IMG/VR virus record: IMGVR_UViG_2737471835_000006
Source: a virus
Lineage: Duplodnaviria; Heunggongvirae; Uroviricota; Caudoviricetes
Length of the DNA: 53,176 bases
Reading direction: 5' to 3' (one strand)
In this document: piece by piece, positions 24,035 to 53,003 of the stretch
How positions within the stretch are numbered: the first letter of the stretch is position 1
How the letters are laid out: every line of letters starts with the position of its first letter
The notes under the pieces: generated by a model
The model's input: the letters and a program-made list of their open reading frames with translations, nothing else
Told to the model about the DNA's origin: nothing
The model's database searches: none
Program-made: the position numbers and the translations under genes

Positions 24035-24627
24035 GATGTGTAATCCAACAGCTGCGCGGCAGCATTTTCAGCGGCCTCCTGAGAGGCAAACGTGCGGAAC
24101 AAAATATAATTCCACAGCACATCTAAAACGGCTGAATACAGTTGACCGAACTCAAGATCGTCCATCGCAGCAAACGAGATTGAACGAGGTACACGCATCA
24201 AACTACCATCTGGCATCTGATGAACGTCATAAAATCCAGATTCCATAGTCGCCCAGGCGCGAAACGCCTCGAACGACTTCACCGCACTGATATTCCCCGC
24301 GCGCTTTTCCGACTCATCGAGAAGATACTGATCAGCCAGCTCAGCCATGACATCACCATGCCCACCGTAATACGCCAGTAACTTAACGTAGCCGTGGACC
24401 AGTTCTCGCTCCGCAGGAGAAATAGCCCCTCCGGACGGATGCCAGTAATCAAAGCCCAGGTTGAGAAGTGAGAAAAATTTACGGTGAAACGCGGGATTAC
24501 GTGCCTGTTTGAAATCTGCATACACAACAGCACCTGGTTTGACTCGTTCAGTCAACCAGCGTTGCGTGTCTGGTGTCGCGGGTATTAGCGAACCGCCGGA
24601 TACCCTGATAAATGAATGCTGCGCCAT
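24031..24627 (-). CDS. Hypothetical nin-region protein
   Basis: 198 aa; 4-nt overlap with the downstream gene. Confidence 0.45.
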   Translation of the reverse strand: MAQHSFIRVSGGSLIPATPDTQRWLTERVKPGAVVYADFKQARNPAFHRKFFSLLNLGFDYWHPSGGAISPAERELVHGYVKLLAYYGGHGDVMAELADQYLLDESEKRAGNISAVKSFEAFRAWATMESGFYDVHQMPDGSLMRVPRSISFAAMDDLEFGQLYSAVLDVLWNYILFRTFASQEAAENAAAQLLDYTS

Positions 24628-24704
24628 GTTTAACTCCAGGTGGCGCGGCAGTGTTCAGAAAATGGTGCCGGGTGTTCAATCCAGCACCGATATTATACCG
24701 TGTT

Positions 24705-24884
24705 TTACGCGTCAGGGGGTGTAATAGTATATCCAGCTATTTCTGCCAACTCGAGAAACGCCATCAGGCTGGCAATCCGTTCATCATCGGTCAGAACACG
24801 CACACCAACGATGTGTCCGTCCTTACGCTTGATAACAGCCCGGCATGTTTCCGGTAGTTCGCCTATAGATTCTTGAATATTCAT
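24705..24884 (-). CDS. Small protein behind a LexA-box promoter; candidate SOS-induced antirepressor
   Basis: 59 aa ORF (MNIQESIGELPETCRAVIKRKDGHIVGVRVLTDDERIASLMAFLELAEIAGYTITPPDA), too short for the six-frame track; SD GGGGGAAG 4-6 nt before the ATG. Confidence 0.45.
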   Translation of the reverse strand: MNIQESIGELPETCRAVIKRKDGHIVGVRVLTDDERIASLMAFLELAEIAGYTITPPDA

Positions 24885-24904
24885 GTCTTCCCCCTAACGC
24901 CATT

Positions 24905-24942
24905 ACCTGTACATTTATACAGTATTTTATGGCATTTGTCAT
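24905..24942 (-). promoter_or_regulatory. Sigma70-like promoter with overlapping LexA (SOS) box
   Basis: Minus strand reads ATGACA, 17 nt, TATAAA; the 20-mer TACTGTATAAATGTACAGGT (CTGT-N8-ACAG) overlaps the -10 element. Confidence 0.6.
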
Positions 24943-25035
24943 AACGCCAGATACAATGAGGGAATAATGAACAATTATATTCACGTCGTGAATTTTATTA
25001 AACGGTTTTATAGGAGATTAAACCGTTTATGGTCA

Positions 25036-25677
25036 TTATTTATCACTCCTGTAAATTGAAATTAACCATTTTCTAATCGTCGACGCTGCAGGTGGGTCAG
25101 AGTATTTCGCCACAAAAATACCGGATATGTATTGCACACCACGCGATAATGGCGCTGTCGGGTTTTCAGTAAAAAAACGATCAGCCAGTTCAATGGCTTC
25201 GCTTTTTAATCTGTGCTGTGGTCGTCCTCCGCCCTTAGTGCCAAGGTAGCGCGCCAGTTGTTTGAAACGGTAGGCGATGATCAACGGTCGCATCATCATA
25301 TTGAAAAAATCGCGGGCATCGTTGTCAGCGCCTTGCGCTAGCAACAGTGCAAAAAACAGATACGGGATTGTGTACACTTCAGGAGATATACGAACCCGTT
25401 CACAAGTTGGTGGAGCCAACTCAATAAGTAAGTCAGCCAGCGGATTCCCCTTTTCTCCACGTTTGTAATAGCGATACAGCGGCCCGATATCAAGTTCACT
25501 CACGTCGATTTCAGGATGCCCGGCAACGGCTGTACGTATCTCTTCTGCCAGAGCGTCAAATATTGCCCCGGTCCGCTCAAGATAGAGCCTCCGGGTCGAG
25601 CCGCGATCATCCAGAGCTCGTAACATATCTAATCGGCTAACGAAAGTTTCAGGCCAGTCCTCATAGAAGGTTTTCAT
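25036..25677 (-). CDS. Hypothetical protein
   Basis: Start placed at MKTFYEDW, which has SD GAGGT 5 nt upstream; the six-frame ORF begins at an upstream TTG (25713). Confidence 0.4.
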   Translation of the reverse strand: MKTFYEDWPETFVSRLDMLRALDDRGSTRRLYLERTGAIFDALAEEIRTAVAGHPEIDVSELDIGPLYRYYKRGEKGNPLADLLIELAPPTCERVRISPEVYTIPYLFFALLLAQGADNDARDFFNMMMRPLIIAYRFKQLARYLGTKGGGRPQHRLKSEAIELADRFFTENPTAPLSRGVQYISGIFVAKYSDPPAASTIRKWLISIYRSDK

Positions 25678-25756
25678 AATTACCTCGAATAATAAAAACT
25701 GCATTATTTGCAAAATTTATTATTCGTTTTCACATCGCAGGGTTCTATAAAAAAGA

Positions 25757-25776
25757 AAACCCGCCGAAGCGGGTTA
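25757..25776 (-). terminator. Rho-independent terminator candidate
   Basis: Stem ACCCGC/GCGGGT with CGAA loop; T-rich tract follows on the minus strand, directly after the stop of the 25796-26074 gene. Confidence 0.5.
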
Positions 25777-25795
25777 GTTATTCATTTGCACCAGA

Positions 25796-26074
25796 TTATG
25801 AGGCCATACCGTAGGCTTTTTTATGCATCCCATGGTCATAGCCCATATTATATGCTTCAAAAGCATCTTTATGACGGACATGCCCAGCCTGGCTTTCGGG
25901 TAAATCACCTAAAACAGAGTCATCAACCGCACGCGGAACGCCGATTAATGCATGCCACATACCTTTATCATAGGCACATCCACAACACTTGTGCCGCCCA
26001 ACGTTACCCTGATTTGCAGAAAGAACATCAAACATACTGTCGTGACGATGTGACTTTTTACAGATGTGTTTCAT
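25796..26074 (-). CDS. Hypothetical His/Cys-rich small protein
   Basis: 92 aa with many His and a CCGC motif; followed by a hairpin terminator. Confidence 0.35.
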   Translation of the reverse strand: MKHICKKSHRHDSMFDVLSANQGNVGRHKCCGCAYDKGMWHALIGVPRAVDDSVLGDLPESQAGHVRHKDAFEAYNMGYDHGMHKKAYGMAS

Positions 26075-26542
26075 TCATTGACCTATATCATTTTCGGTAA
26101 TGAATGCTTTACACGGGATCCCGGTTGAGGTAATCTCCCAAACCGAGATCTCAACGAAAGCATTAACCGATGTTTTTGTATGGCCCTGACAGTTGGCGCT
26201 GTCAGGGCTTTCCCTTTGATGCGACTCTAAAAACTTCGCAACCTCCAGATCCTATCCAGGACCAAGAAAAACTTCAATGAAAAGATCAAGTTAGATCTGT
26301 ATTTTTTTACAGATGTAATAAATCACACATGTAATAGCCTTCCCTTTCCGTTCTCATCTGGCCTCTTGTGGCATCCATTTTTTTAAGAAACATATGGACG
26401 CTTAAAAAACCACTAATGTCATGATTATCATGTATGTTTTTACTGGAAACATTGAGCCATCCACAATGCAGCGTAAAAAGCAAGCAATTCACAAGATTTT
26501 AAAGTGATTTATCTGGAAGACTTTACTACTAACAGTTAATAT

Positions 26543-26587
26543 CGTACCAGAAGTGCAGAATTTGCACTTTCACAGGAAAGTGGTACG
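26543..26587. promoter_or_regulatory. Nested inverted repeats upstream of the ImmA-like gene (candidate operator)
   Basis: CGTACCA ... TGGTACG arms enclosing GTGCAGAATTTGCAC, about 55 bp upstream of the 26642 start. Confidence 0.35.
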
Positions 26588-26641
26588 GAACATGTTGTCT
26601 ATATTTCGACCAACAATCGTAATGCAGTAACTGGAGGAGCT

Positions 26642-27130
26642 ATGGCTACCAACCCAAGAGAGCACGCCCGGCGAGTGCTGGACACGTTCTGGTGCGGGCG
26701 TGGTTTCCCTGTTGATCCAGCGAAAATTGCTCACGACATGGGATTAGATGTTTTTATTACCGATCTTCCTGGGAAAGTTTCTGGCGCACTGATTAAACAA
26801 AAAGATCAAGATCCAGCGATCTTTCTAAACAGTGATGACAACAAAGTTCGTCAACGTTTTTCATGTGGGCATGAGTTGGGGCATTACATCGCCCGGCAAG
26901 CATCGCATAGTGATGAATATGAGTACGTTGATTTACGTGGCGAAACCGCAAGCGCCGGAACGCATCCTGATGAAATTTTTGCGAACAAGTTCGCAGCAGA
27001 ACTTCTGATGCCGGTTGATGAGGTCAGAAAACTGCACGCTGACGGCCAACCAAGTTATATAATGGCGCATTATTTTGGCGTATCTGACGATGCGATGACT
27101 TATCGTTTAAAGAACTTGAGGTTGGGGTAA
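26642..27130 (+). CDS. ImmA/IrrE-family zinc metallopeptidase
   Basis: 162 aa; HEXXH motif in CGHELGHY; strong SD GGAGGAG. Confidence 0.7.
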   Translation: MATNPREHARRVLDTFWCGRGFPVDPAKIAHDMGLDVFITDLPGKVSGALIKQKDQDPAIFLNSDDNKVRQRFSCGHELGHYIARQASHSDEYEYVDLRGETASAGTHPDEIFANKFAAELLMPVDEVRKLHADGQPSYIMAHYFGVSDDAMTYRLKNLRLG

Positions 27131-27139
27131 CGCTTTAGA

Positions 27140-27745
27140 ATGCCATCGGATGACGATTTTAACAGCCGTTTCAAACAGGAAGTTGCACGCCGACTGAAGG
27201 ATTCCCTCAACCTACACCGTCAGTTAGCAGAAGAGGTTGAGCCGGGGGACGATGAAACCCCGGTTCAGTCTCCTGACGAAACTTCACCTCAGCCAAAGGT
27301 TTCGCACGCCCCCAAAAAAACGGCTGTCCGTATTCGCGGAATAGCCAGAAAAAGAGCTGCCGAAGCTCGCAAAATGGCTGTAGCTGCGTCTAGCAAAAGA
27401 ATTCCAACTGTTACACCCTCTCAACAAGTCACCCGTACTGAGAGTAAAATCTTGACCGAGTTCACATCTGTGAAACAGGTGAATTCACTTGATACCGAGC
27501 ATGAGCGCAAACAACTCAACAACAAAGATTTTGAAGCAGAAATCGCTCTAAAAAAACGATACGGGAAATGGTTCCTGATTATCCTTGCTTGCCAACTTCT
27601 GATAATGAATGGTGTATTTATTGCCGACGGCGCAGGTAAGCTGGAATTTGAGGATTTAACACTACAGTTGTACATGGGCGGTACTTTGACAGAGGTATTC
27701 GGCCTCGTGCTGGTCGTGACAAAATACCTTTTTAAACGCAAGTAA
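27140..27745 (+). CDS. Membrane protein with disordered N-terminus and two C-terminal TM helices
   Basis: 201 aa; starts 10 nt after the ImmA-like stop; C-terminal WFLIILACQLLIMNGVFIA and GGTLTEVFGLVLVVTKYLF hydrophobic segments. Confidence 0.5.
   Translation: MPSDDDFNSRFKQEVARRLKDSLNLHRQLAEEVEPGDDETPVQSPDETSPQPKVSHAPKKTAVRIRGIARKRAAEARKMAVAASSKRIPTVTPSQQVTRTESKILTEFTSVKQVNSLDTEHERKQLNNKDFEAEIALKKRYGKWFLIILACQLLIMNGVFIADGAGKLEFEDLTLQLYMGGTLTEVFGLVLVVTKYLFKRK
27667..27745 (+). repeat. Direct repeat copy 1 (3' end of the 27140-27745 gene)
   Basis: About 75 bp nearly identical to 31269-31346 (one indel, about four mismatches). Confidence 0.85.
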
Positions 27746-27854
27746 CTCTCTCTATGGAACAGACTTTAGTCGATTTAATGGAGAAGACCAGCAACCCCAA
27801 ATGACCAAGTAACAAGTGCTGGCCTTATAGACGATTACTGAGTGTGTTCGAGTG

Positions 27855-28259
27855 CTATCGTTGTACAATTCGTCCGTTGGGATCCAGCCACATCCCATCA
27901 GAAAGATACACCATTTCCCTGGGTTCATCCGTTACCTGCAGGTCATGGTAAATTGAAGTAAGTTCATTTTTAGGTGAAGGAGTGATATCTTCGCTTCCAA
28001 AGATCATATCTTGGTATTGTGCCCAATTTTGGCGAATTTCGAAATACATATCAACATCATAATCCTGCCCTCTTAGTTCATCATCTGAAGATATATTCAA
28101 TGTCTTTTTGAGACCGATGATGTTAAAGATCCACTTCTTACCACCTTTAATGAAGTATGCCCCAGTATATGCCTCTTCATCTGGTACAGCCTCATAACCT
28201 AAATTTAATGCTAATTGTATCTGTTCTGCTAATGTAAAAGGCTCTTTCCATCCACTCAT
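27855..28259 (-). CDS. Hypothetical protein (AT-rich cassette)
   Basis: 134 aa acidic protein with ATG start; no motif recognised. Confidence 0.4.
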   Translation of the reverse strand: MSGWKEPFTLAEQIQLALNLGYEAVPDEEAYTGAYFIKGGKKWIFNIIGLKKTLNISSDDELRGQDYDVDMYFEIRQNWAQYQDMIFGSEDITPSPKNELTSIYHDLQVTDEPREMVYLSDGMWLDPNGRIVQR

Positions 28260-28579
28260 AGCTTATTACCTACCTGTGAACCTGTTTGCTGCATGAAAAA
28301 CAATATAATAAAGCGTTATTGAAGACTATGATCCAAGTAAATTTAATCAAATACGTTTATAACGTATTTGCCTAAACAACTTCCAACGTATGATCCGCTT
28401 CTCGCTCTCAGCAGACCTTTATCTGCAGGTGCTTGTCTGCTGTGTTCCAGAAGCAGATATTATTATATAACTCTTTAACCCATGTATGACAAAATATTCT
28501 TGGAGCTTATTAAAACTTCATACGTCTAAATCACCTCTTCATTAGTGAATCAATAATTGTATAGTTAAAATGTAACACT

Positions 28580-29245
28580 TTATTTTTTATGATTAACTTG
28601 CTTTGCTAAAGAGCTATAAATCATATCAACCAAAACATATTTTTCGCATTCCCAAGGTTCACTAATAGATGGGTTTACTAAGTCTGGCTTCCCCCCCATT
28701 AGTGTATGAACATGCGAATAAATACCTATTCTTTCTGCGAGCTGCATTATTTTTATTTGATGTTCTGGTGGGAGCATTTTGTTTTTAAACCATGTTGTAA
28801 ATATATGCTTGGTAAGTTCCTTAGTACAAACAAACCATTCACCTTGACGTCTTTCGTTGCTAAATTTTTCATGAAGATAGTTTTCTTTTTCTGAACCACC
28901 TGGTTCCAAAGCGTGTAATATTAATTGACCAAATGCACCTGTCTGCAGGTTAGACAACCTTTTTAGCACATTATTGGAACGCCCTATTTTCACATAAAGT
29001 CCCGAGTAAGGGTTATTTTTATCTGAAGAACCGGCCCAAGTATCAGGCACTTGTAAAATATAATAAATACTACTTACTTTCCCACTCGATACATTATTTG
29101 CCCAAATCTGCCATTCTTCCATCCAGCTTTTTGCATCTTCTCTCGTGTCAAAGGCATGACTTGTATAGTAAAATTCACCAGTATCCAAGAACATATCGAA
29201 AACATATTTGCCATTCTCTATAATTCTTAAGTTGTCGGCTTTCAT
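28580..29245 (-). CDS. T5orf172 / GIY-YIG-superfamily domain protein
   Basis: 221 aa; central GLYVKIGRSNNVLKRLSNLQTG ... ENYLHEKFSNERRQGEWF matches the T5orf172 (Mug113-like) signature; AT-rich gene with large AT-rich upstream region. Confidence 0.55.
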   Translation of the reverse strand: MKADNLRIIENGKYVFDMFLDTGEFYYTSHAFDTREDAKSWMEEWQIWANNVSSGKVSSIYYILQVPDTWAGSSDKNNPYSGLYVKIGRSNNVLKRLSNLQTGAFGQLILHALEPGGSEKENYLHEKFSNERRQGEWFVCTKELTKHIFTTWFKNKMLPPEHQIKIMQLAERIGIYSHVHTLMGGKPDLVNPSISEPWECEKYVLVDMIYSSLAKQVNHKK

Positions 29246-29449
29246 GGAAGTTTCTCACAAAGTTACAGGAATATATAAAAACTTTACTACGCTTAGTATA
29301 TATTACCACCTGATTATGTATTATTTGATTTACACAACTTATTGCTAGTAATAACGGTTTTGATGTAATCTTCTCATCCCAAACTAACCTTCAAAATAGA
29401 TTTAATCTAAATTATATCAAAATATGCTCTCAGTTAAGATGGCTTATTT

Positions 29450-29647
29450 TTAATCAGTTAGAGGATCAACCTGATTTTCTCTAATAAGATTTCGTAACGC
29501 AGTACGAGCAGCCGCGACTTCTGTCATTCCATTTAGAACCACGCTGGAATGCCCTCCTCTAACCCCAAAGACTGTGACCATATCCTCTTCACGGAAGTAT
29601 TCTGCTTCATACTGAAGGCCATCTTTCTCTACGCGAATATATGACAT
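29450..29647 (-). CDS. Hypothetical small protein
   Basis: 65 aa ORF upstream of the T5orf172 gene on the same strand. Confidence 0.3.
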   Translation of the reverse strand: MSYIRVEKDGLQYEAEYFREEDMVTVFGVRGGHSSVVLNGMTEVAAARTALRNLIRENQVDPLTD

Positions 29648-30273
29648 AACAACCTCATTTTATTATCTTTTGTTTGAATGATATATCCACAAAATAATTT
29701 AAGCAATCTCGCCCAAGACGGTACGCCAAGCTTGCCTTGTAAGTATACTGTAAATATTCCGATAAAACTAATCATTCGCTTTTAGCGCATGTCCAAAAAA
29801 TGGTTCAGGTATCCTATCGTGCCAATATTCGCTCCTCACTCATAGCGGCTTTCAGGCAAGTTAACTAGTCCGCTCGGTGCCATATAGAGCCATGGTTATT
29901 AACAGCAGGGAATAATTCCACACTGAAATTAAATGTCTACCTTTTACAGTAGAAATAGTTCCTCCAGGACACTATCCATTGCCGGGCACAATCACTCGGG
30001 GTATAACGATATAAAATATGTTCATGATAGTGCAGGTTCGTATATTAAGTTCAGCAGCGAAAACATGCCTTACAGGTTTCCGGTTTTGGGAGCGTCGTTA
30101 CAGGATCCTGTGCATACCGTTCCCATCTGTTGAATTAAAGGTTTCACAGCCTTTGCCGATATCACCTTTTACCTTGCCTGTGATGCGTTCAGTGCTCAGC
30201 GTTGTTTACTGTAGCTCTCGGAACTGATTACAGACCGCGTCTTAAAAACCAATCCTTACTCTAAAGGGAATTC

Positions 30274-31197
30274 ATGAGATTAAAATACTCAGTACTCTTA
30301 CTCGCCATTGCCCTTACAGGCTGTGATAACAAAAAAGATGAGATCGGTTGTTCTTCGGAAATGACCCAATCAGCTCTCATGGATTTATTAAAAAAATCTG
30401 CTTATGAAGGACTCTCTGAACAGGTCGATAAATACCCTGATGTCACTAATCAGACCAAACGAAGCACACTGGACAAGATCAAACTAGCCGTCTCTGAAAT
30501 CTCCACAACATCAAGTGACACGGGCAGCACAATGAAAACTTGTGAAGGGACCGTGACGATGACTCTACCTGCGAACGAGTACGTCCAGCTTTCTGATGCT
30601 TACAGAAAGAATTTTAATCGTAATCTCGATAAGCAAATGGAAAATCTGTTTTTGGAGAACAACGCAAACGCCTTTTCAAAACGTATCACCTACACCGTGC
30701 AGGCGACCGACGATCAGAAAAACGTTTTTGTAAAAACCTCTTCTGATAATCCGATATCAGTGGGCGCCGCTTTACTGACATCGCTTTCCATTATCAACCC
30801 GATCGTTGAGCAGCAGAAAATCCAGCAGGCTAAGGATGCCCAACAGAGTCAAATTGAAGCGGAACAACAGGTGCAACTCAGGGCACAGGAACAGGCCAGG
30901 TATGAGGCGGAGAAGCAAATAGAGAGGCAGGCACAACTTCAGCCGCAAAAAGCTGAAAGCCTTGATCAGTCCCGAATGGCATTTGCGAATGCTGACTCTG
31001 ATTTGAATACAGTCTGGGGCAGGTTAACGCCGGCGAAGAAAAAAGAGTTGCTGCCTTCTCAGCGTCAGTGGATCAAAACTAAGGATGCTATGTGCGGTAA
31101 AGTTTCAATGCAGGGAACAGATGCTGAAGTCAAGAAAATGGTCGACTGCCAGACGCAAATGACCCTTTCAAGAATCGCTTTCCTCAGAAACCAATAA
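30274..31197 (+). CDS. Lipoprotein with C-terminal DUF1311 (LprI-like) domain
   Basis: 307 aa; signal peptide and lipobox LTGC; Gln-rich coiled-coil middle; C-terminal NTVWGRLTPAKKKELLPSQRQWIKTKDAMC pattern. Confidence 0.5.
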   Translation: MRLKYSVLLLAIALTGCDNKKDEIGCSSEMTQSALMDLLKKSAYEGLSEQVDKYPDVTNQTKRSTLDKIKLAVSEISTTSSDTGSTMKTCEGTVTMTLPANEYVQLSDAYRKNFNRNLDKQMENLFLENNANAFSKRITYTVQATDDQKNVFVKTSSDNPISVGAALLTSLSIINPIVEQQKIQQAKDAQQSQIEAEQQVQLRAQEQARYEAEKQIERQAQLQPQKAESLDQSRMAFANADSDLNTVWGRLTPAKKKELLPSQRQWIKTKDAMCGKVSMQGTDAEVKKMVDCQTQMTLSRIAFLRNQ

Positions 31198-31268
31198 CTG
31201 AAGTTTCCTTCAAGCTGGCGCCTGGTGTTAACCTGGTGCCAGCTTAGTCATCAAGTACATACGTAACA

Positions 31269-31346
31269 GTTTTACATGGGCGGTACTTTGACAGAGTATT
31301 CGGCCTCGTGCTGGTTGTGACTAAATACCTTTTTAAGCGCAAATAG
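31269..31346 (+). repeat. Direct repeat copy 2 (degenerate duplicate of the 27140-27745 gene end)
   Basis: Matches 27667-27745 but carries a 1-nt deletion, so is out of frame; lies just downstream of the antirepressor-like gene stop. Confidence 0.85.
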
Positions 31347-31374
31347 AGTATAACCGCGCCAAACATTCAACCTG

Positions 31375-32169
31375 TCAAAATGCTGAATCAGCAACGGATA
31401 CAACCGACTTTTTCCCCATTACCATCAATTTATCCAGCGTCATACTTCGCAGGTTGTCGCTGTGGATCACCAGATACCCTGCCCGCTCAGCGATCTCTTT
31501 GAAAGCGTCAAACGTCATCAGATGTTCGCCTTTGGCAACATGGCGCATCCTGGTCACTTTTCCATTTTTGATAGTGGTGATAAAAGAAAAATCTGGAATG
31601 GTTGGCTGATTTTCATCGAGTAGCAGGCAGTGGATGTATTCAATCGCCTCTAACATTTGCGTCTGTGACAGTTGTTCTATGTGAGAGACGGCGAAGCGTT
31701 GATGAATCATGGTGTAGGCATCGGGATACATCATGCCTTTCTTACCGACCAGCATATTAACGGCATCACGTAAGGGAGTACGGTCATCGGTAGTTGTACT
31801 CCGCCTCTCTGGACGCTGTCTAAAATAACAATCTTCCAGCTTTTCGAAAACTTCCCAGGCCTGTTCTGTTTCCAGCATTTTGGCATGGCGAGCTGCGCCG
31901 CATTCTGTCCAGAGGATGAGAGAGCGGACATTTCTGGCGATTTTCACAGGAGGTCTTAAAGACATGCTGTGCTTAAATTCGCGCAACTCCTCACCTTCGA
32001 GCAAAAAGTAATGCTTCCCGACCACGAATCGCTCTGAGTTCCGGTTATGGTTTTTACGAATGTAATCCGGCTCTGTGCCATAGAGGTTCGCGAGTAATTC
32101 GGTGGTGAGGACGGGAAGTTGGTTGTGGATAATCGGGGAGATGGCTGCTGCGGATACTTGAGTTGTCAT
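31375..32169 (-). CDS. Phage antirepressor-like protein (ORF6N-type N-terminal domain)
   Basis: 264 aa; N-terminal LLANLYGTEPDYIRKNHNRNSERFVVGKHYFLLEGEELREFK resembles the ORF6N domain. Confidence 0.55.
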   Translation of the reverse strand: MTTQVSAAAISPIIHNQLPVLTTELLANLYGTEPDYIRKNHNRNSERFVVGKHYFLLEGEELREFKHSMSLRPPVKIARNVRSLILWTECGAARHAKMLETEQAWEVFEKLEDCYFRQRPERRSTTTDDRTPLRDAVNMLVGKKGMMYPDAYTMIHQRFAVSHIEQLSQTQMLEAIEYIHCLLLDENQPTIPDFSFITTIKNGKVTRMRHVAKGEHLMTFDAFKEIAERAGYLVIHSDNLRSMTLDKLMVMGKKSVVSVADSAF

Positions 32170-32441
32170 AGCGATTTCCTTTTAGTCGGATAATCACCCC
32201 CCTCAGGTGCAAATCTTTGGGTGGTGAGACATGCAGGGTTTGCACTACCGGCTAAAAGGACCCGGCGAGCCTTTCGACTCCCCTACACGCCCCACCATAA
32301 ATCGCGGATGTGGCTGTGCGCACGACAATAAAAAAGACGCTGGCGCGTCGTTGTCGCCTTTTAGATATCCGGGGTGCAAATCCCGGCAACCGATTTTGCG
32401 GCTGCGCGGAAACTATAGCCCCGGGCTTTTTCTAAGTCAAT

Positions 32442-32663
32442 TCAATCAACTTCAAACCTCCGGTGTTCACATTCCATACACTCAACGGGAACATCATCGC
32501 GATGCAAGTCCACATATCCGACCCGCTTATACAACTCAATAATGTCCGGTAACGTGACCAGATGTTTTTCCGGTTCCAACACCTCAGCCTTGGTTACTTT
32601 GTAATCTGAAATATAGAGCACTATCCGCCCGTTCCGTGGTAACTCCAGTTTATCGCCAAACAT
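32442..32663 (-). CDS. Hypothetical protein
   Basis: 73 aa ORF in the nin-like region. Confidence 0.3.
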   Translation of the reverse strand: MFGDKLELPRNGRIVLYISDYKVTKAEVLEPEKHLVTLPDIIELYKRVGYVDLHRDDVPVECMECEHRRFEVD

Positions 32664-32850
32664 GTCCTTTCCCTCCGGGAAACCAATGATATTGACGATA
32701 TTACACCCACAACGATTCGTTTTACGTCACTCCGCAATCACCATACATACGTACCAATCCGTACATTCCCACCACAAAAATGGCATTCGGCGGGCACTGG
32801 TAATGGATTTTTAACGCGTGCTATTGCCTTGCGACGTATTTTCAATTCAC

Positions 32851-33075
32851 TCATACAGCCTCCCTGCTCTCAAACGGGCGAATATTTGTTGGTTCTCCAC
32901 ACGGAATGGCCCAACCCAGCCAGGTGAATATTTTCAGGTCACACATCGCGTCATACTGCTCACCGGGGATAATGTCGATCATGCTGCATACAATTTCGTA
33001 TTGATCATTAACGGCACTCAACGCCACTTTGTCGTTAATAAATCGTGGAATAAATGCGAGTAAAATTTCGTTCAT
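32851..33075 (-). CDS. Hypothetical protein
   Basis: 74 aa; 4-nt overlap with the upstream gene. Confidence 0.3.
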   Translation of the reverse strand: MNEILLAFIPRFINDKVALSAVNDQYEIVCSMIDIIPGEQYDAMCDLKIFTWLGWAIPCGEPTNIRPFESREAV

Positions 33076-42673: not shown

Positions 42674-42854
42674 ACTGACCGGCTACCAGTTCCCGTCAAA
42701 ACAATGCGGCGCCCTGACCCGTGCCGGGATCTCTTATGTAAAACGCCGCGATGGGCGACCTCGCGTCACATGGACGCATGTAAACGCTGCGCTGTCCGGA
42801 GCAAGGTCCGTGCAGATTGCCGAAGAAGAACAACCAAATTTTGATGCAATCTGA
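42639..42854 (+). CDS. Putative excisionase / recombination directionality factor
   Basis: 71 aa immediately upstream of the integrase with overlapping stop/start. Confidence 0.4.
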   Translation: MNDLLNDEELVELTGYQFPSKQCGALTRAGISYVKRRDGRPRVTWTHVNAALSGARSVQIAEEEQPNFDAI

Positions 42855-43882
42855 TGAGCAGAACACGAAAAAGCGCGGAAGATAATAAGCTGCCACCCCG
42901 CGTTTATAAAAACAAATACAGCTATTATTTCAAACCAACGCCCCGAGAGTGTATTACGCTGGGTAAAATTAATGATCTGTCAATTGCTCAGGTATGGGTG
43001 AAATACGAAGAGATCCTGAATGATGCTATTGATGTCATGACGTTCAGTAAACTCTGGAACAAATTTCTCAACAGCACCTACTATCTGGAACTCGGTCAGC
43101 GTACACAAAAGGATTATCTGCAGCACCAGAAGAAATTACTCGCCGCGTTCGGGAAAATGAAAGCCGACAACATAAAACCTGCTCACGTGCGGCTGTATAT
43201 GGACAAGCGGGGGCTGAAAAGCAAAACACAGGCGAACCATGAAAAAGCCAGTATGTCGCGAGTATTCCGCTGGGGATACGAACGCGGATACGTAAAAGGG
43301 AATCCATGCCAGGGCGTCAGTAAATTTTCCCTCAAGCCCCGCGACTACTATTTCACGGACGAGGAATATATCGCAATTTATCAGGAGGCATCTCCCGTTT
43401 TACAGTGCGCGATGGAGATCGCCTATCTGTGCGCCACGCGGATCGGCGATATACGAAAGCTGACGTGGGATCAGGTTATGAGTAAGGGTTTGTTTATCCA
43501 ACAGGGTAAGACTGGCAAAAAGCAGATCAAACAGTATTCAGAGCGACTGACGTTCGCACTTGAGCAGGCGAAATCGTTGGGAGGACAACATTTCGTGGTC
43601 TGTAACAAATATGGCGGGCAATACAGTTATACCGGATTTAACGATATCTGGCGTAAAGCCAGGGCGGCGGCAAGTGAAAAGCTGGGCTACCCGATTACGG
43701 GAACGTTTCACGATTTAAAAGCGAAGGGGATCTCAGACTACGACGGAAGCAGTAAAGAAAAGCAGTTGTTCTCTGGTCACAAAACTGAGGCGCAGGTGCT
43801 GACGTATGATCGCAAACCTGCAGTTTCTCCGACTCTGGATATTCCGGTGCTGGATGTCACAGTTCTGAGCAGAAACCCGTGA
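42854..43882 (+). CDS. Tyrosine site-specific integrase
   Basis: 342 aa; phage-integrase architecture with C-terminal catalytic region (HDLKAKGISDY ... LFSGHK ... LTYDRK); adjacent to a tRNA-derived att core. Confidence 0.8.
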   Translation: MSRTRKSAEDNKLPPRVYKNKYSYYFKPTPRECITLGKINDLSIAQVWVKYEEILNDAIDVMTFSKLWNKFLNSTYYLELGQRTQKDYLQHQKKLLAAFGKMKADNIKPAHVRLYMDKRGLKSKTQANHEKASMSRVFRWGYERGYVKGNPCQGVSKFSLKPRDYYFTDEEYIAIYQEASPVLQCAMEIAYLCATRIGDIRKLTWDQVMSKGLFIQQGKTGKKQIKQYSERLTFALEQAKSLGGQHFVVCNKYGGQYSYTGFNDIWRKARAAASEKLGYPITGTFHDLKAKGISDYDGSSKEKQLFSGHKTEAQVLTYDRKPAVSPTLDIPVLDVTVLSRNP

Positions 43883-43967
43883 CGGTCTAATTCTAAGTGA
43901 ATATTCTAAGTCCGTTCTAACAGGGGGATCGACGGTGAAAAGTGAGTGACGTAAGTCATTGATAAAG

Positions 43968-44037
43968 TGGCGGAGAGAGGGGGATTTGAACCCCCGGTAG
44001 AGTTGCCCCTACTCCGGTTTTCGAGACCGGCCCGTTC
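43968..44037 (-). tRNA. tRNA-Ser (anticodon CGA) 3' fragment; att core copy, not a complete gene
   Basis: Minus strand reads anticodon arm CCGGT-CTCGAAA-ACCGG, long variable arm, T-arm GGGGG-TTCAAAT-CCCCC, acceptor 3' strand TCTCTCC and CCA; no complementary 5' acceptor strand exists upstream. Confidence 0.6.
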
Positions 44038-44163
44038 ATCAAACAAAACAGCAACTTAGCTCACATTATGAGGAAAAGTATCTTTTTTGTACTATGTAAA
44101 TTCAAAGGGTTAGCCTCATTTCCCAGATGGTTTTCTCAACACTATTAGTTGTGAGCCCTTGCA

Positions 44164-45266
44164 ATGTTCATTAATATACACCACACAAATAATTCACAGA
44201 TATTGCAAAATGCTCAGGTCAAAAATAAAATAAAACGTGTTGATCGTCTGCTCGGTAATGAATCTCTTCATCACGACATCCCCCTGATTTTCATAAACAT
44301 TATTTCCATGCTGACGAGCAAGCTGTCACTGTGTGTCATCGCCGTTGACTGGAGTGGATACCCCTCTCAGGAGTATCACGTACTCCGCGCCAGCCTGATT
44401 TGCGATGGACGTTCGATTCCATTGCTGAGTTGGATAGTTCCTTCGGAAAAACAGCAAAATGCTAAGATACAGCAAGCCTTTCTTAATACTCTTTCCGAAG
44501 CGGTAAACCCAAAAGCAAGGGTAATCATCGTCGCGGATGCAGGGTTTCAGAATGCCTGGTTTCGGCACGTAAAATCACTCGGCTCGGATTTTATTGGCCG
44601 GATACGAGGCAATAAACAACTACATCTGGCAAGAAAAGGGGAATGCTGGTTCAGGCGTCAGGAATTACAGGCCAGTAACAAACCTGAATATCTGGGGCCG
44701 GGGACGCTTTCCCGGGCGGAATACGCCCGTTGCGATGGTCATTTTTATTTGCACAAAAAAGAGCCGAAAGGCCGGAGAAATAAACGTTCGCGTTGTGGTA
44801 TAGCCAGACCATCACAGATAAAAGATGCCAGGTCGGCGGCAAAAGAACCATGGTTAATATTCAGCAGCACAGATGACTTTAAACCGCGAGAAATCATGAA
44901 GTTATACAGCCACCGAATGCAGATTGAGCAAAACTTCAGGGATGAAAAAAGTGAGCGTTTTGGGTTCGGTCTGCGAGCCAGTTGCAGCTGTTCGGCAGGA
45001 AGAATGCTGGTACTGAGCCTGCTGGCAACACTGAGCACAATAGTGCTGTGGCTTATTGGCTATCACGCTGAAAATCAAGGAGATATCAGGCCAACAGCAT
45101 TAAAACGCAGCGGGTAATCTCGCATCTGACGTTAGCGGAGAATGTCTTACGACACTCCCCGCTAATTTTAAAACGAACGGTGCTAAGCACCATTCTTAAT
45201 CACCTCGCCAGAACCTACCAGAATATGGTGTTGGTTTATTAGCGCTGATTTATGGGGATCCCTCAG
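44164..45266 (+). mobile_element. IS4-family (IS10-like) insertion sequence remnant with disrupted transposase
   Basis: 317-aa ORF 44164-45117 collinear with the IS10 transposase core (KRVDRLLGN, VIIVADAGF, SAAKEPWL, YSHRMQIEQNFRDEKS) but short at both ends; terminal repeat CTGAGGGATCCCCATAAAT (reverse strand) at 45248-45266; no left end found. Confidence 0.6.
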
Positions 45267-45407
45267 CGCTTATGCGGGCTTTTTCATCTACTTAAATTAC
45301 GGTGTTTAATACATCCCCCTCAACGGGTATCATTCTTTTCTTTCATCGATCCAAACTTTCCACCATAAAAATGAATCCCCATATGATCTAGAAGCGAATA
45401 TCGATTA

Positions 45408-47111
45408 CTATGTGGGGTCGACCAACCAACCTTCAATATAATGGAAAGGAACTGGGTATCGGTAACAGCGACACGCTGTAAGAACTAATGGTGCATACCC
45501 TTTAATCACGGCTGACATTCTCTTAAACGAATCTGCATTATTACACTCTTGTGCAATGTGTTTTATTGCTAATTCGCCATTCATCGGGAAATCTGTTGAC
45601 GCTGAGCCATGTGTATCTGAGTTCGAGTACATATATTGTTCACTGTATTGATTTGGATACCAATACTGTAGCGTGCTATGTGCCAGTTTTTCAGTAGCAA
45701 ACTCTTCCAAATCTTTGCTTAAAGAGTCTAATTTATACAGAGAGCAAAAGACTGTTAACAGAGGATATAAAATACTAGCCTCAGTAACCTTATTCTTATA
45801 AATCTTGTCAGTTTTATCTTTATTCCTATGTTCAATCAGTTTTTCGTAAGTTTCATATATAATTGGATACATTCCATTGATCTCAAAAGAGAATATACAT
45901 CTATTAACCATTTCCGATAGCCAACTTTTCACAAACTCATCGAGCTCTGAATTATTTGAGAGTAACATTAGAGCTAACCCAATATCTATCGCCTGAGAAT
46001 CTTTTTGCGGTGAGAGCAGAACCGGATTGTTGATAACTAATAGACGAATTGACTTTGTTATTTTCCTGAGATGTATACATAACCTTTCTTGTTCTTTGCT
46101 CTCTCCATCAATTGGTGGGTTCTCTGCATAATTCTTAGACAACAAATCTAAAATCCAGTGTCCCTTGACGGATAAACGACCTAGCACATCAAAAAGCTTA
46201 AAGTTTATATCAATAGAGCACGGGGAGCGAACAGCATGAGATAAAGCATATTTAAATTCAACATACGGAATTAAACAACGTTCAATATAGCAATCAGTAA
46301 TTTGCTGGTAGGTATCTAAAATGCTATCAAATGACTTTGAAGGCCTATTCTTTCCGGTATAGTGTTCTTTTACTTTATCCCAAGCTAACAGCAATGCTCG
46401 TTCTGATGAAAGATATGCTGATTCTAAATTCCCGCCATCACGACACCAAGCAAATAAAACCCATAGACAAACATTTATCCGTGTTATCGATGAGGCAACA
46501 GAATCTGAATCTGTAGCGTTTTTCAGAACATCATTAATCAATAGAAAGAAGTAATTGCTAGAAGTCTCTGGTTCTTCAAGTAAAGCCAAAGATTTTCTTA
46601 ATAAGGTCTGGCTGGAACTAGGTAGTAATTCTTCTTTCAACAAATGCTGCTGGATAAGCTCAGATATTTTATCACCATTCCACTCTTCAAAAGAAATATT
46701 ACCTTGAGTATTTCGTGTTTCATACCCAGACACCTCTTGCCTGATCCCTGAGCTAACATCTCCACCAAAGCATAAGCAAATAACTATTTTTTTATCTCTA
46801 TGTTCGGGCGGTAAACGACTTGGTATAAATGAATCTTGAATCTCATCTAACGAAGGTCTAAGAGCCTGATCTGCGTTTCCATTCCATGTCTCACGAGTAA
46901 GGTTTCCAGATTTAACAGAAAATAAATAGACTTTTGTCTCTTCACCATTTATTTGGCCTACAGCCGCTATATCTACTCCATACTCTTTCACTCCACGGGT
47001 TGGCGAAATAAACACATTCATCCCCATACTGCTCAACAAATCTGGCAGTATAGCATCTAACTCTGCTCGTTCTTTTAATGAAGCCAAGTATTGCTTAAGA
47101 ATTAATTTCAT
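45408..47111 (-). CDS. Uncharacterised large protein with Mrr-type restriction-endonuclease-like N-terminal domain
   Basis: ATG start at 47111 lies 1 nt after the upstream gene's stop (the track's 47126 start is a GTG). N-terminal SPTRGVKEYGVDIAAV ... KVYLFSVKSG resembles the Mrr catalytic-domain pattern; rest helical; AT-rich. Confidence 0.5.
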   Translation of the reverse strand: MKLILKQYLASLKERAELDAILPDLLSSMGMNVFISPTRGVKEYGVDIAAVGQINGEETKVYLFSVKSGNLTRETWNGNADQALRPSLDEIQDSFIPSRLPPEHRDKKIVICLCFGGDVSSGIRQEVSGYETRNTQGNISFEEWNGDKISELIQQHLLKEELLPSSSQTLLRKSLALLEEPETSSNYFFLLINDVLKNATDSDSVASSITRINVCLWVLFAWCRDGGNLESAYLSSERALLLAWDKVKEHYTGKNRPSKSFDSILDTYQQITDCYIERCLIPYVEFKYALSHAVRSPCSIDINFKLFDVLGRLSVKGHWILDLLSKNYAENPPIDGESKEQERLCIHLRKITKSIRLLVINNPVLLSPQKDSQAIDIGLALMLLSNNSELDEFVKSWLSEMVNRCIFSFEINGMYPIIYETYEKLIEHRNKDKTDKIYKNKVTEASILYPLLTVFCSLYKLDSLSKDLEEFATEKLAHSTLQYWYPNQYSEQYMYSNSDTHGSASTDFPMNGELAIKHIAQECNNADSFKRMSAVIKGYAPLVLTACRCYRYPVPFHYIEGWLVDPT

Positions 47112-47112
47112 T

Positions 47113-48837: not shown

Positions 48838-49086
48838 ATTCCTTAACCTCACAAAACTGACATTAGATCAATCCGTACTTTGTAAGATTAGAAGAAACAG
48901 GTCAATTGTAACCTCCCCATTTCATACATCTTGATGTTCGCAACTTCCGCCACAGTTCTCGAATCAATGCCATACTGTCATGAAGTTTTGGTAGAAAGAT
49001 ATTTAGGTTCACTCATACCAGAATACGGCAAAATTGATAACGACTATAAATCATTCAATACTCGCACTATCAGAAGTTCACCAGCC

Positions 49087-49131
49087 AACCGCGGCACGTC
49101 CTGCATAGGACGTGTCTGCGGTTTTTCTTTT
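49087..49131 (+). terminator. Strong plus-strand rho-independent terminator with no obvious plus-strand gene
   Basis: Extended stem around CACGTCC-TGCATA-GGACGTG followed by TTTTTCTTTTT. Confidence 0.5.
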
Positions 49132-49135
49132 TCGC

Positions 49136-49720
49136 TTACATTGTGTCTGGTTCTTCCGGCCACTCAATATCAGGTGCAGTTGTTGTATTAACACGGTTCA
49201 GCAACACCCGATACTTCTTCCAGGCTTCCAGCAACGAGGTTTCTTCCTCCGTTGCAATTTCCAGATCTGCAGCATCCTGAAGCGGCGCAATATGCTCACT
49301 GGCTACCTGCATCAGGCTGTTTTTTGTTTCTTCCGCCTCCCGGATCCGGAACAGTTTTTCTGCTTCTGCATCTTTCACCCAGGCTGTGCCGTTCCACTTC
49401 TGATATTCCCCTCCCGGCGACAACCAGGTAACATTTTCCGGTAACGGACCGAGTTCAGAAATAAATAACGCGTCGCCGGAAGCCACGTCATAAACCGTTT
49501 TACCCCGATGGTCTTCAACGAGATGCCACGATGCCTCATCACTGTTGAAAACAGCCACAAAGCCAGCAGGAATATCTGGTGGTGCAATATCGGTACTGTT
49601 TGCTGGCAGACCTGTATGAGGCGGAATATATGCGTCACCTTCACCAATAAATTCATTAGTCCCGACCAGCAGATTATAAATTTTTATGGTCCGTGGTTGT
49701 TCACTCATTCTGAATGCCAT
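49136..49720 (-). CDS. tfa: Tail fiber assembly protein, lambda Tfa
   Basis: 194 aa, near-identical over its length to lambda Tfa as recalled ([18 protein letters not shown] ... [51 protein letters not shown]). Confidence 0.85.
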
Positions 49721-52700: not shown

Positions 52701-52995
52701 GGGCATCATCCTCCGTCATGGCACCGAGAAAATCATTCAGCGTACCGGGTCGGGAATCTTCATACACGGTGATGGTCCCGGCATGTGACGGCGGGAATCC
52801 TTCCACCAACAGAATAACGCTGTACTGACCGTACTCAACGTCCATGCTGTAACGCCCGGCTTCATCCGGATTTTCTGAGGCCAGCGTGTTCACCACCACC
52901 GTGGTGCTGTTACGTTTTGCTTTCAGCTGGATTGTGCAGTTCTGTACCGGTTTTCCTGTGCCGTCTTTCAGTACACCTGAAATCTTTACTGCCAT
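49720..52995 (-). CDS. stf: Side tail fiber protein, lambda Stf family (long form)
   Basis: [27 protein letters not shown]-terminus, Ala/Ser-rich repeats, and His/Gly-rich C-terminal region ending [11 protein letters not shown] as in lambda Stf; ATG start placed 6 nt inside the track ORF (first codon there is GTG). Confidence 0.9.
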
Positions 52996-53003
52996 ATTCA
53001 CCC

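What the first reader, a model, noticed from the sequence alone, without database searches (positions are those of the whole stretch)
27667..31346. About 3.5 kb AT-rich cassette bounded by about 75 bp direct repeats derived from a gene's 3' end
The last about 25 codons of the membrane-protein gene (27667-27745) recur at 31269-31346 with one indel and a few substitutions, so the second copy is a non-coding remnant. The intervening DNA is AT-rich and carries four genes with long AT-rich intergenic spacers: a 134-aa protein, a T5orf172/GIY-YIG-type protein, a 65-aa protein and a DUF1311 lipoprotein. This is the footprint of a module inserted or exchanged by recombination at a short homologous anchor, as seen at prophage accessory hotspots.
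Basis: seen in the sequence. Interest (0 to 1): 0.65.

Follow-up and report, generated by a model that had tools for sequence, protein, structure and literature searches.

The report
Gene-end repeats flanking swappable prophage cargo
An E. coli prophage keeps a dead 81-base copy of a membrane-protein gene's end 3.6 kb downstream of the live gene, and the DNA between the copies is a stack of swappable accessory genes; this is a well-documented but ordinary example of how prophages trade cargo.

Summary
Window 27664-27745 (the last 26 codons plus stop of the membrane-protein gene) recurs at 31266-31346 with 75 of 81 bases identical and a 1-nt deletion. It is the only repeat in the 53-kb window.

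The window is a lambdoid E. coli prophage. The repeats lie in an accessory-gene hotspot between a conserved 225-aa gene and the ORF6N antirepressor gene.

The 3.6 kb between the repeats is not one cassette. It holds a hypervariable slot (27765-29872) and a conserved block (29873-31265) that contains a self-contained LprI-lipoprotein unit (30045-31246).

Related prophages carry at least six other cargo sets at this locus. Most swaps break at 27765 and 29872, not at the repeats. Copy 2 also persists in prophages that lack copy 1.

The repeats do recombine:
- One of 5,426 E. coli genomes (GPEC172) has a precise deletion with a hybrid copy.
- An E. whittamii prophage has the opposite hybrid, followed by a further cargo segment.
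- The two crossovers fall in different parts of the repeat, which indicates general homologous recombination rather than site-specific recombination.

Verdict: a typical mosaic accessory or defence hotspot with a fossil gene end. It is a new member of a known kind, of modest interest.

The parts
25036..25713 (-). Conserved 225-aa phage gene (phrog_5215). It is the left border of the variable region.
   Evidence: Present at 70-100% identity to the left of the variable region in types A, B, C, E, F and G. The corresponding 213-aa gene in type D is identified only by its position in the E24377A annotation table. PHROG match.
26642..27130 (+). ImmA/IrrE (Peptidase_M78) metallopeptidase gene, first gene of the ImmA-TM pair.
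   Evidence: Pfam PF06114 7.7e-18; PADLOC capP 2.4e-25. Always directly upstream of the TM gene in 9 distant genomes.
27140..27745 (+). 201-aa protein with a variable N-terminal part and two C-terminal hydrophobic segments. Its last 27 residues are almost invariant across the family.
   Evidence: alignment A1; phrog_5346.
27664..27745 (+). Repeat copy 1: the functional 3' end of the TM gene (codons 176-201 plus stop).
27765..29872 (.). Hypervariable cargo slot. Homology to related prophages stops sharply at both ends.
   Evidence: Breakpoints at 27764-27767 and 29872/29873 in L001, L003 and L004; 29878 in L020. This cargo occurs in 18 of 5,426 E. coli genomes, once each.
27855..28259 (-). 134-aa ORF with no family match.
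28348..28370 (-). Hairpin downstream of the T5orf172 gene (terminator-like).
   Evidence: fold -14.1 kcal/mol, z -4.8.
28580..29245 (-). 221-aa MUG113/T5orf172 (GIY-YIG-like) protein gene.
   Evidence: Pfam PF13455 6.4e-10 and PF10544 4.4e-07. Homologues sit next to PARIS-type genes in Enterobacter and in a Vibrio region carrying BrnT- and ParE-toxin genes.
29450..29647 (-). 65-aa ORF. It travels with the T5orf172 gene in one other viral contig.
   Evidence: Window 28394-29743 matches L056 at 85%. It is absent from the more distant T5orf172 contexts.
29873..30273 (+). Conserved non-coding leader upstream of the LprI gene. The part from 30045 onward belongs to the portable LprI unit.
   Evidence: Conserved in types A, B, C, D and F. 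The other phage group shares only 30045-31246. No Rfam match.
30274..31197 (+). 307-aa lipoprotein with a C-terminal LprI/DUF1311 domain. Lipobox LTGC followed by Asp at +2.
   Evidence: Pfam PF07007 5.4e-08; sequence; dN/dS 0.10-0.15 against the other phage group.
31213..31245 (.). Strong hairpin between the convergent LprI and antirepressor genes. It marks the end of the LprI unit.
   Evidence: -28.2 kcal/mol, z -4.3; it also forms on the minus strand. Homology with the other phage group ends at 31246.
31266..31346 (+). Repeat copy 2: a frameshifted, non-coding remnant of a TM-gene 3' end, 30 nt from the antirepressor stop codon.
31375..32169 (-). ORF6N antirepressor gene. It is the right border of the variable region.
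   Evidence: Pfam PF10543 8.2e-18; phrog_4792 anti-repressor.

Best explanation
The repeats lie in an accessory-gene (moron or defence-type) hotspot of a family of lambdoid Escherichia prophages. The hotspot sits between a conserved 225-aa gene and the ORF6N antirepressor gene, in the region between the replication genes and NinB/Q.

Inferred history: the ImmA-TM gene pair originally ended about 30 nt from the convergent antirepressor gene. New DNA was then joined in by recombination between related phages, with one join inside the TM gene at about codon 175. That left the last 26 codons stranded next to the antirepressor gene as copy 2. An intact ImmA-TM pair, probably a different allele, lies upstream and supplies copy 1.

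The DNA between the copies was built up piecemeal from portable units: an LprI-lipoprotein unit with its own upstream region and hairpin, a p65-T5orf172 unit, and a 134-aa gene. It keeps being replaced, mostly at breakpoints 27765 and 29872.

Shown by natural variants: the two 81-nt copies act as a substrate for general homologous recombination. This can delete everything between them, restoring a chimeric but intact TM gene, or join cassettes from different phages.

The cargo genes most likely serve the lysogen, for example in exclusion of or defence against other phages. That is inferred and not shown.
For: 1. Repeat real and unique in the window.
2. Context: the window is a lambdoid prophage 100% identical to E. 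coli E62 and others, with Q, NinB/Orf, DnaB, an O-like replication initiator, YdaT, an HTH repressor, an exonuclease, a Gam-like protein and an integrase.
3. Cargo variability between conserved borders:
   - Type A: the window, 18 genomes.
   - Type B: 232-aa gene, 413 genomes.
   - Type C: transposase pseudogene plus a 266-aa gene.
   - Type D: 8-kb island with LEM-3 GIY-YIG and HNH genes and no ImmA-TM pair.
   - Type E: L053.
   - Type F: L020, with GmrSD_N/NsnA-like cargo.
   - Type I: L080/L081, with SMEK and methyltransferase genes.
4. Portable sub-units: the LprI unit 30045-31246 occurs alone next to a NinB-like gene in about 25 other viral contigs. The p65-T5orf172 unit 28394-29743 occurs in an unrelated contig.
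5. Copy 2 is a fossil of a TM-antirepressor junction. It is present without copy 1 in types D and F, and it is cut to its last 13 nt in type I.
6. Recombination across the repeats:
   - GPEC172 (L015) has ImmA-TM abutting ORF6N. Its single copy carries copy-1 variants on the 5' side and copy-2 variants plus the copy-2 flank on the 3' side.
   - Its flanks are 99.8% identical to type B, against 87-98% to the window, so it is nested within a lineage that has the duplication.
   - Its TM protein has Val at T194, a position invariant in 20 family members.
   - E. whittamii L005 has the reverse hybrid (copy-2 5' part, copy-1 3' part), followed by the start of type-B cargo and a PDC-M25 candidate defence pair.
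   - The two crossover intervals (repeat positions about 13-46 and about 57-73) do not overlap.
7. Copy 1 and copy 2 in the window differ by 4 synonymous changes and 1 non-synonymous change plus the indel. This is weakly suggestive that they diverged as coding alleles.
8. Foreign composition of the left 2 kb.
Against: - The order of the founding events cannot be reconstructed. The decayed copy-1 remnant in L020 has the same left end as copy 2, and the simple model does not predict this.
- The hybrid pattern in GPEC172 is formally also what an ancestral empty site would look like. The deletion direction rests on parsimony and on the T194V change.
- I could not check that GPEC172 lacks the cassette elsewhere in its assembly.
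- No validated defence system is present in the window's own cargo: PADLOC gave only marginal hits.
- Promoter-like matches in the region are no more frequent than in shuffled sequence, so independent expression of the units is unproven.
Confidence: 0.75

Rival explanations
1. Site-specific integration. The 3.6-kb segment would be an integrative element that inserted into the 3' end of the TM gene and carried its own copy of that end. The two repeats would then be attL and attR, as for e14 or phage 21 in icd.
For: Direct repeats of a gene's last 26 codons, with an intact copy on one side and a displaced remnant on the other. The hybrid single copy in GPEC172 is also what an attB site would look like.
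Against: - No integrase or recombinase gene in any cargo type. Pfam, PADLOC, PHROGs and NCBIfam runs on the cargo proteins found none. The only recombinase-type gene is an unrelated transposase pseudogene in type C. The prophage integrase lies 11 kb away.
- Two natural recombinants crossed over in non-overlapping parts of the repeat.
- The segment is a composite of units that move separately.
- Copy 2 exists without copy 1.
- The repeats have no unusual secondary structure.
Confidence: 0.04
2. In-situ duplication. A local tandem duplication or replication slippage copied the gene end, and the intervening DNA and the differences between the copies accumulated afterwards.
For: Same orientation and the same right-hand limit at the stop codon.
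Against: - The intervening DNA is compositionally foreign and is made of units found elsewhere on their own.
- Differences between the copies in the window are mostly synonymous. This fits two coding alleles better than decay of a fresh duplicate.
- Copy 2 occurs in prophages without the parent gene.
Confidence: 0.05
3. Nuclease-driven turnover. The GIY-YIG-like and HNH genes in the cargo would be free-standing homing-type endonucleases. Their double-strand breaks, repaired from co-resident phages or by single-strand annealing between the repeats, would drive both cargo spread and the deletion.
For: Nuclease-family genes recur in the cargo: T5orf172/MUG113 in type A, and LEM-3 GIY-YIG in types D and E, with an HNH gene as well in type D. 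The units are AT-rich and intergenic. The prophage encodes an exonuclease, a Gam-like protein and NinB/Orf.
Against: - Types B, C and I carry no recognised nuclease gene; type F carries only a GmrSD_N-type restriction-endonuclease domain.
- T5orf172 homologues sit as single genes next to PARIS-type genes in an Enterobacter island and in a Vibrio region carrying BrnT- and ParE-toxin genes, which fits defence or accessory cargo better.
- No cleavage site or co-conversion tract was identified.
Confidence: 0.12
4. Chance similarity or assembly artefact.
For: None.
Against: - E 2e-26, and the only repeat in the window.
- The same two-copy arrangement is present in hundreds of independent complete genomes.
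- The exact runs shared between the two copies are at most about 22-24 nt, which makes an assembler mis-join at the hybrids unlikely (inference).
Confidence: 0.01

Closest known systems
Morons and mosaic module exchange in lambdoid phages (Hendrix, Juhala and colleagues, HK97/HK022 comparisons; from my own knowledge)
   Same: Extra genes sit between genes that are adjacent in a relative (GPEC172). They have foreign base composition. The plus-strand cargo (ImmA-TM and LprI) runs opposite to the phage early-right operon, whereas the three genes in the variable slot run with it. The units have their own flanking hairpins, sharp homology breakpoints at gene borders, and they recur in otherwise unrelated phages.
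   Different: Here a fossil of the neighbouring gene's end was left behind and now forms an 81-nt direct repeat. That repeat has demonstrably mediated later deletion and cassette joining. Promoters and expression in the lysogen were not shown.
Prophage and satellite defence hotspots, such as the P2/P4 hotspots (Rousset et al. 2022, PMC9122126; Vassallo et al. 2022, PMC9519451)
   Same: Conserved flanking phage genes enclose highly variable content. The content includes candidate defence genes: PDC-M25, an NsnA/GmrSD-like gene, and T5orf172 next to PARIS-type genes elsewhere.
   Different: This is a different phage type (lambdoid, between the nin region and the antirepressor). No experimentally validated system was recognised in this window's cargo. 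I did not find this particular hotspot described, in four keyword searches and term look-ups in one paper.
Gene 3'-end duplication by integrating elements, such as e14 or phage 21 in icd, which leave the icdC pseudogene (from my own knowledge)
   Same: An intact gene end on one side of the foreign DNA and a displaced remnant of the same gene end on the other. The differences between them are largely synonymous.
   Different: No integrase belongs to the segment, the crossover position is variable, the interior is composite, and the remnant also exists without the intact gene.
Integron gene cassettes separated by attC sites
   Same: In E. whittamii the A-type cargo and a further cargo segment lie in series, separated by a hybrid copy of the same 81-nt sequence.
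   Different: The repeat is a coding gene end with no attC-like fold (z -0.6 and +0.6). The cargo proteins scanned include no integrase. Exchange is by homology at variable points.

Membership tests
Lambdoid-phage moron / accessory hotspot | Extra DNA lies between genes that are adjacent in a close relative. | tested here: met
   GPEC172 has ImmA-TM directly next to ORF6N, with 99.8% identical flanks. The LprI and p65-T5orf172 units occur separately in other phages.
Lambdoid-phage moron / accessory hotspot | Base composition differs from the surrounding phage genes. | tested here: met
   GC 0.29-0.40 across 27850-29650 against about 0.45-0.55 in the flanks. The LprI unit is less extreme at 0.41-0.49.
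Lambdoid-phage moron / accessory hotspot | Each unit has its own promoter and terminator. | tested here: inconclusive
   Strong hairpins follow the LprI gene (31213-31245) and the T5orf172 gene (28348-28370). Promoter-like matches are not above the shuffled expectation (11 found against 14.0 expected).
Lambdoid-phage moron / accessory hotspot | Expressed from the repressed prophage. | not testable with these tools
   This needs RNA-seq of a lysogen. The only support here is that the ImmA, TM and LprI genes run opposite to the early-right operon.
Anti-phage defence hotspot | Conserved borders with variable content across relatives. | tested here: met
   At least seven cargo types occur to the left of the ORF6N antirepressor gene. 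The p225 left border was seen in types A, B, C, E, F and G, and by annotation position in D.
Anti-phage defence hotspot | Content includes recognised defence systems. | tested here: inconclusive
   Relatives carry PDC-M25 A and B (8.5e-157 and 4e-96) and an NsnA-like/GmrSD_N gene. The window's own cargo gave only marginal PADLOC hits.
Anti-phage defence hotspot | Cargo protects against phage infection. | not testable with these tools
   This needs plaque assays with cloned cargo.
Site-specific integrative element (attL/attR) | A recombinase gene lies within the element. | tested here: not met
   No integrase, recombinase or functional transposase was found in cargo types A, B, D, E, F or I.
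Site-specific integrative element (attL/attR) | Crossover occurs at a fixed core position. | tested here: not met
   The L015 crossover lies within repeat positions about 13-46 and the L005 crossover within about 57-73.
Transposon target-site duplication | Short identical duplication with terminal inverted repeats at the element ends. | tested here: not met
   The repeat is 81 nt and 7% diverged. No inverted repeats lie at the inner edges.
Integron cassette array | attC-type folded recombination sites and an IntI integrase. | tested here: not met
   The repeat strands fold no better than shuffles. The locus proteins scanned with Pfam include no integrase.

The most novel reading that the evidence does not exclude
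The locus may be a previously undescribed lambdoid-prophage defence hotspot whose fixed resident, the ImmA-like peptidase plus small two-TM protein pair, is itself an uncharacterised and widely distributed two-gene module. The pair was found in Enterobacteriaceae, Thalassotalea, Gallibacterium, Microbulbifer, Desulfuromonas and a Rhodococcus MAG. It could be a protease-controlled membrane effector acting in abortive infection or as an addiction module. On this reading, its extremely conserved 3' end doubles as a portable homology anchor that lets related phages stack or shed defence cassettes without any dedicated recombinase.
Probability: 0.2. Interest if true: 0.55.

Novelty: new member of a known kind. 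Interest (0 to 1): 0.3.

Why it matters
The locus gives an unusually complete natural record of how a prophage accessory region evolves. It preserves a fossil gene end that marks the original junction, at least seven alternative cargo sets, portable sub-units seen elsewhere on their own, and two natural recombinants. Those recombinants show that an 81-nt imperfect repeat is enough for homologous recombination to delete or concatenate cassettes.

In practice, it flags a defined interval in a prophage family present in several hundred of the 5,426 complete E. coli genomes searched, including the ST131 strains sampled. That interval is a place to look for uncharacterised phage-exclusion genes: the T5orf172 gene, the LprI-type lipoprotein and the ImmA-TM pair. 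It does not reveal a new kind of mechanism.

Tried and rejected
- Rfam scan of 24500-33000 at E up to 1: nothing inside the cassette. The only matches were C4/isrK RNAs beyond the antirepressor gene.
- Promoter scan: matches were not above the shuffled background, so no promoter claims are made.
- Folding of the two repeat copies: no attC-like or terminator-like structure.
- PADLOC, NCBIfam and PHROGs on the 134-aa and 65-aa proteins: no informative matches.
- INPHARED phage collection: no sequenced phage carries the locus beyond a 731-nt contig end.
- p65 as an obligate partner of T5orf172: rejected, because it is absent from the Enterobacter and Vibrio contexts.
- Literature searches for PDC-M25 and for an ImmA-plus-membrane-protein system found nothing specific.
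- Treating the mostly synonymous differences between the copies as proof of an allelic origin: rejected as too weak. There are only 5 substitutions, and the type-B copy 2 carries three non-synonymous changes.
- I could not verify that the cassette is absent elsewhere in the GPEC172 assembly, because hit lists cannot be filtered by accession.

Full report
**1. The observation**

The direct repeat is real. The repeat finder reports it in two in-register pieces (27664-27694 with 31266-31296, and 27695-27744 with 31296-31345). BLAST joins them into one 81-column alignment at 92.6% identity with one gap.

A self-comparison of the whole 53,176-nt window finds no other non-trivial repeat (E 2e-26).

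Copy 1 is the end of the 201-aa ORF 27140-27745 (residues 176-201 plus TAA). Copy 2 (31266-31346, ending in TAG) has a stop codon immediately upstream in that frame and a 1-nt deletion that breaks the frame.

The four genes between the copies are as described:
- 134 aa, no family match.
- 221 aa, MUG113/T5orf172.
- 65 aa, no family match.
- 307 aa, with a C-terminal LprI/DUF1311 domain and a lipobox (LTGC, Asp at +2).

GC is 0.29-0.40 over 27850-29650. It is only mildly low (0.41-0.49) over the LprI gene.

**2. Context**

The window is a lambdoid prophage of E. coli, 100% identical over the 6-kb query to strains E62, D217-5 and others.

On the minus strand, reading from right to left, lie the early-right genes:
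- a YdaT-family gene;
- an O-like replication initiator;
- a DnaB-type helicase;
- small ORFs;
- C4/isrK antisense RNAs;
- the ORF6N antirepressor gene (31375-32169);
- after the region in question, a 225-aa gene (25036-25713), NinB/Orf, DUF1364, Q, lysis genes and terminase.

The ImmA-like peptidase gene (26642-27130), the TM gene and the LprI gene are on the opposite strand. The three genes in the variable slot run with the early operon.

**3. What related sequences show**

In 5,426 complete E. coli genomes, 775 match some part of the 6-kb query. About 450 carry the flanks at 95% identity or more.

Homology to the window stops sharply at 27764-27767 and resumes at 29872/29873. I found these architectures:

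| Type | Where seen | Arrangement |
|---|---|---|
| A | The window; 18 E. coli genomes | ImmA-TM, then 134-aa / T5orf172 / 65-aa genes, LprI, copy 2, ORF6N |
| B | 413 genomes, including the ST131 strains sampled | Slot holds a 232-aa gene |
| C | One genome | Transposase pseudogene plus a 266-aa gene |
| D | E24377A, SE11 and others | No ImmA-TM pair. An 8-kb island with a 7TM-like protein, a 459-aa protein, LEM-3 GIY-YIG, HNH and a lipoprotein, then the same leader, LprI and copy 2 |
| E | L053 | ImmA-TM, 3.4 kb of other genes, LEM-3 GIY-YIG, LprI cut to its last 40 codons, copy 2 |
| F | L020, L072 | No ImmA-TM pair. A decayed copy-1 remnant with an in-frame stop, a GmrSD_N/NsnA-like gene plus a 204-aa gene, LprI, copy 2 |
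| I | L080 and strain A42 | ImmA-TM, then a 450-aa gene, a SMEK-domain gene, a methyltransferase and a TM protein, directly followed by ORF6N. Only the last 13 nt of copy 2 (TAAGCGCAAATAG) remain |

The interval between the 225-aa gene and the antirepressor gene is therefore a hotspot of variable accessory DNA.

**4. The interval between the repeats is composite**

In about 25 viral contigs of another phage group, an LprI homologue sits next to a NinB-like gene (LprI 84-86% identical, 76% in one contig). In the five such contigs I compared at the DNA level, homology to the window covers at most 30045-31246. That is 230 nt of upstream sequence, the gene and the hairpin 31213-31245. There is no copy 2 and no ORF6N.

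The hairpin is strong on both strands (-28.2 kcal/mol, z -4.3).

LprI is under purifying selection (dN/dS 0.10-0.15).

The segment 28394-29743 (the 65-aa gene plus the T5orf172 gene, ending near hairpin 28348-28370) occurs at 85% identity in an unrelated 70-kb viral contig.

More distant T5orf172 homologues are single genes. One lies beside an AAA_15 plus DUF4435 (PARIS-type) pair in an Enterobacter chromosomal island. Another lies in a Vibrio vulnificus region that also carries BrnT- and ParE-toxin genes.

So the "3.5-kb cassette" is a stack of at least three units that move independently. Copy 2 lies outside the LprI unit.

**5. Copy 2 is a fossil of the TM-antirepressor junction**

Every architecture keeps the most 3' part of a TM gene 30 nt from the antirepressor stop codon. 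That part is 81 nt in types A-F and 13 nt in type I. This holds whether or not an intact TM gene is present.

The simplest reading, which is an inference, is as follows. ImmA-TM and the antirepressor gene were once convergent neighbours. Incoming DNA was joined inside the TM gene near codon 175.

The window's copy 2 differs from copy 1 by four synonymous changes and one non-synonymous change plus the indel. This weakly suggests that the two copies diverged as coding alleles of different phages. The numbers are too small for confidence, and the type-B copy 2 carries three non-synonymous changes.

**6. The repeats do recombine**

A chimeric "empty-site" query found exactly one genome of 5,426 (GPEC172) in which ImmA-TM abuts ORF6N.

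- Its single repeat copy has copy-1 variants at the 5' end. From "cggTctc" onward it has type-B copy-2 variants, including the copy-2 downstream flank.
- Its flanks are 99.82% and 99.86% identical to type B. Against the window they are 96.8-97.7% on the left and 86.8% on the right.
- The two-copy arrangement is shared by lineages that are far more diverged than that. The empty site is therefore most parsimoniously a recent deletion by recombination between the repeats.
- The resulting TM protein has Val at T194, which is invariant in 20 diverse family members. This fits a 3' part that spent time as a non-coding remnant.

In the E. whittamii prophage (L005) the copy after LprI is the reciprocal kind of hybrid: copy-2 variants on the 5' side and copy-1 variants on the 3' side. 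It is followed by the first 250 nt of type-B cargo and then a PDC-M25 A/B candidate defence pair.

The two crossovers lie in non-overlapping parts of the repeat (positions about 13-46 and about 57-73). This argues for general homologous recombination and against a site-specific core.

The longest exact runs shared by the copies are about 22-24 nt. Assembler mis-joins are therefore unlikely, although I could not independently confirm the GPEC172 assembly.

The prophage encodes an exonuclease, a Gam-like protein and NinB/Orf. Whether these functions or RecA did the work cannot be told from sequence.

**7. What the cargo does (inferred, not shown)**

- The window's own cargo has no match to validated defence systems.
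- Relatives carry candidate defence genes at the same place.
- The T5orf172 gene keeps defence-type company elsewhere.
- The LprI-type lipoprotein, with Asp at +2 (the E. coli inner-membrane retention signal, from my own knowledge), could act in the periplasm against incoming phage lysozymes. This is speculation by analogy with T4 Spackle, also from my own knowledge.
- A rival view, that the GIY-YIG-like and HNH genes are homing-type endonucleases driving turnover, cannot be excluded. It does not fit the cargo types that lack recognised nuclease genes.

**8. Comparison with known systems, and verdict**

The locus behaves like a classical lambdoid moron or accessory hotspot, and like the P2/P4 defence hotspots (PMC9122126, PMC9519451).

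It resembles the icd/e14 type of gene-end duplication in appearance. It fails the tests for site-specific integration: no recombinase in the segment, a variable crossover point and a composite interior.

What is worth keeping:
- the clean natural before-and-after evidence that an 81-nt imperfect repeat supports cassette loss and cassette joining;
- a defined interval in a common E. coli prophage family that holds several uncharacterised candidate exclusion genes.

Noticed in passing
window 26642-27745; loci L006-L014: The ImmA/IrrE-like peptidase gene and the small two-TM protein gene form a conserved adjacent pair in very distant bacteria: Buttiauxella, Leclercia, Thalassotalea, Gallibacterium, Microbulbifer, Desulfuromonas and a Rhodococcus MAG. 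No conserved HTH partner accompanies them. The last 27 residues of the TM protein are almost invariant while its N-terminal part is hypervariable. PADLOC 2.0 has no TM-partner model, and ImmA hits only capP/RmrA. This may be an uncharacterised two-gene module.
   Followed up: partly
window 26850-26881 and 27696-27727; locus L058: The type I-E CRISPR array of E. coli JX21CE8 has two adjacent spacers identical to the ImmA gene (flanking PAM ATG) and to repeat copy 1 itself (flanking PAM AAG). Copy 2 differs from the second spacer at two positions.
   Followed up: partly
window 30274-30305; locus L057: A type I-E CRISPR spacer present in WCHEC005784, and in at least eight other E. coli genomes in the sampled hit list, matches the first 32 nt of the LprI gene.
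   Followed up: partly
window 32217-32418 (-): Rfam finds a C4 antisense RNA (73.6 bits), isrK (76.2 bits) and, 0.9 bits below its gathering score, the a1/b1 target element directly upstream of the ORF6N antirepressor gene. This is a P1/P7- or Gifsy-type antisense-controlled antirepressor module in a lambdoid prophage.
   Followed up: no
window 25714-26400: A second small variable slot lies left of ImmA. The window has a 92-aa minus-strand gene (25796-26074, phrog_3941), whereas type-B and type-F prophages have a 77-aa plus-strand gene. Homology between them resumes at 26380-26400.
   Followed up: partly
L005 11637-13579: The E. whittamii version of the hotspot carries a complete PDC-M25 candidate defence pair: an AAA-type ATPase (8.5e-157) and its partner (4e-96). 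The insertion replaced the 3' end of the antirepressor gene.
   Followed up: partly
window 42854-53001: Beyond the prophage integrase (42854-43882) lie a DDE transposase gene (44164-45117) and then minus-strand genes, including a 1,093-aa tail-fibre protein (49720-53001) and two large ORFs with no Pfam match. This may be a second phage-derived element or a rearranged prophage end.
   Followed up: no
E. coli genome hits H17, H21, H37, H56, H171-H173: IS1 or ISEc23 copies have inserted into the cargo slot or, in H56, into the ImmA-TM part of the locus in several genomes. The hotspot also tolerates IS insertions.
   Followed up: no
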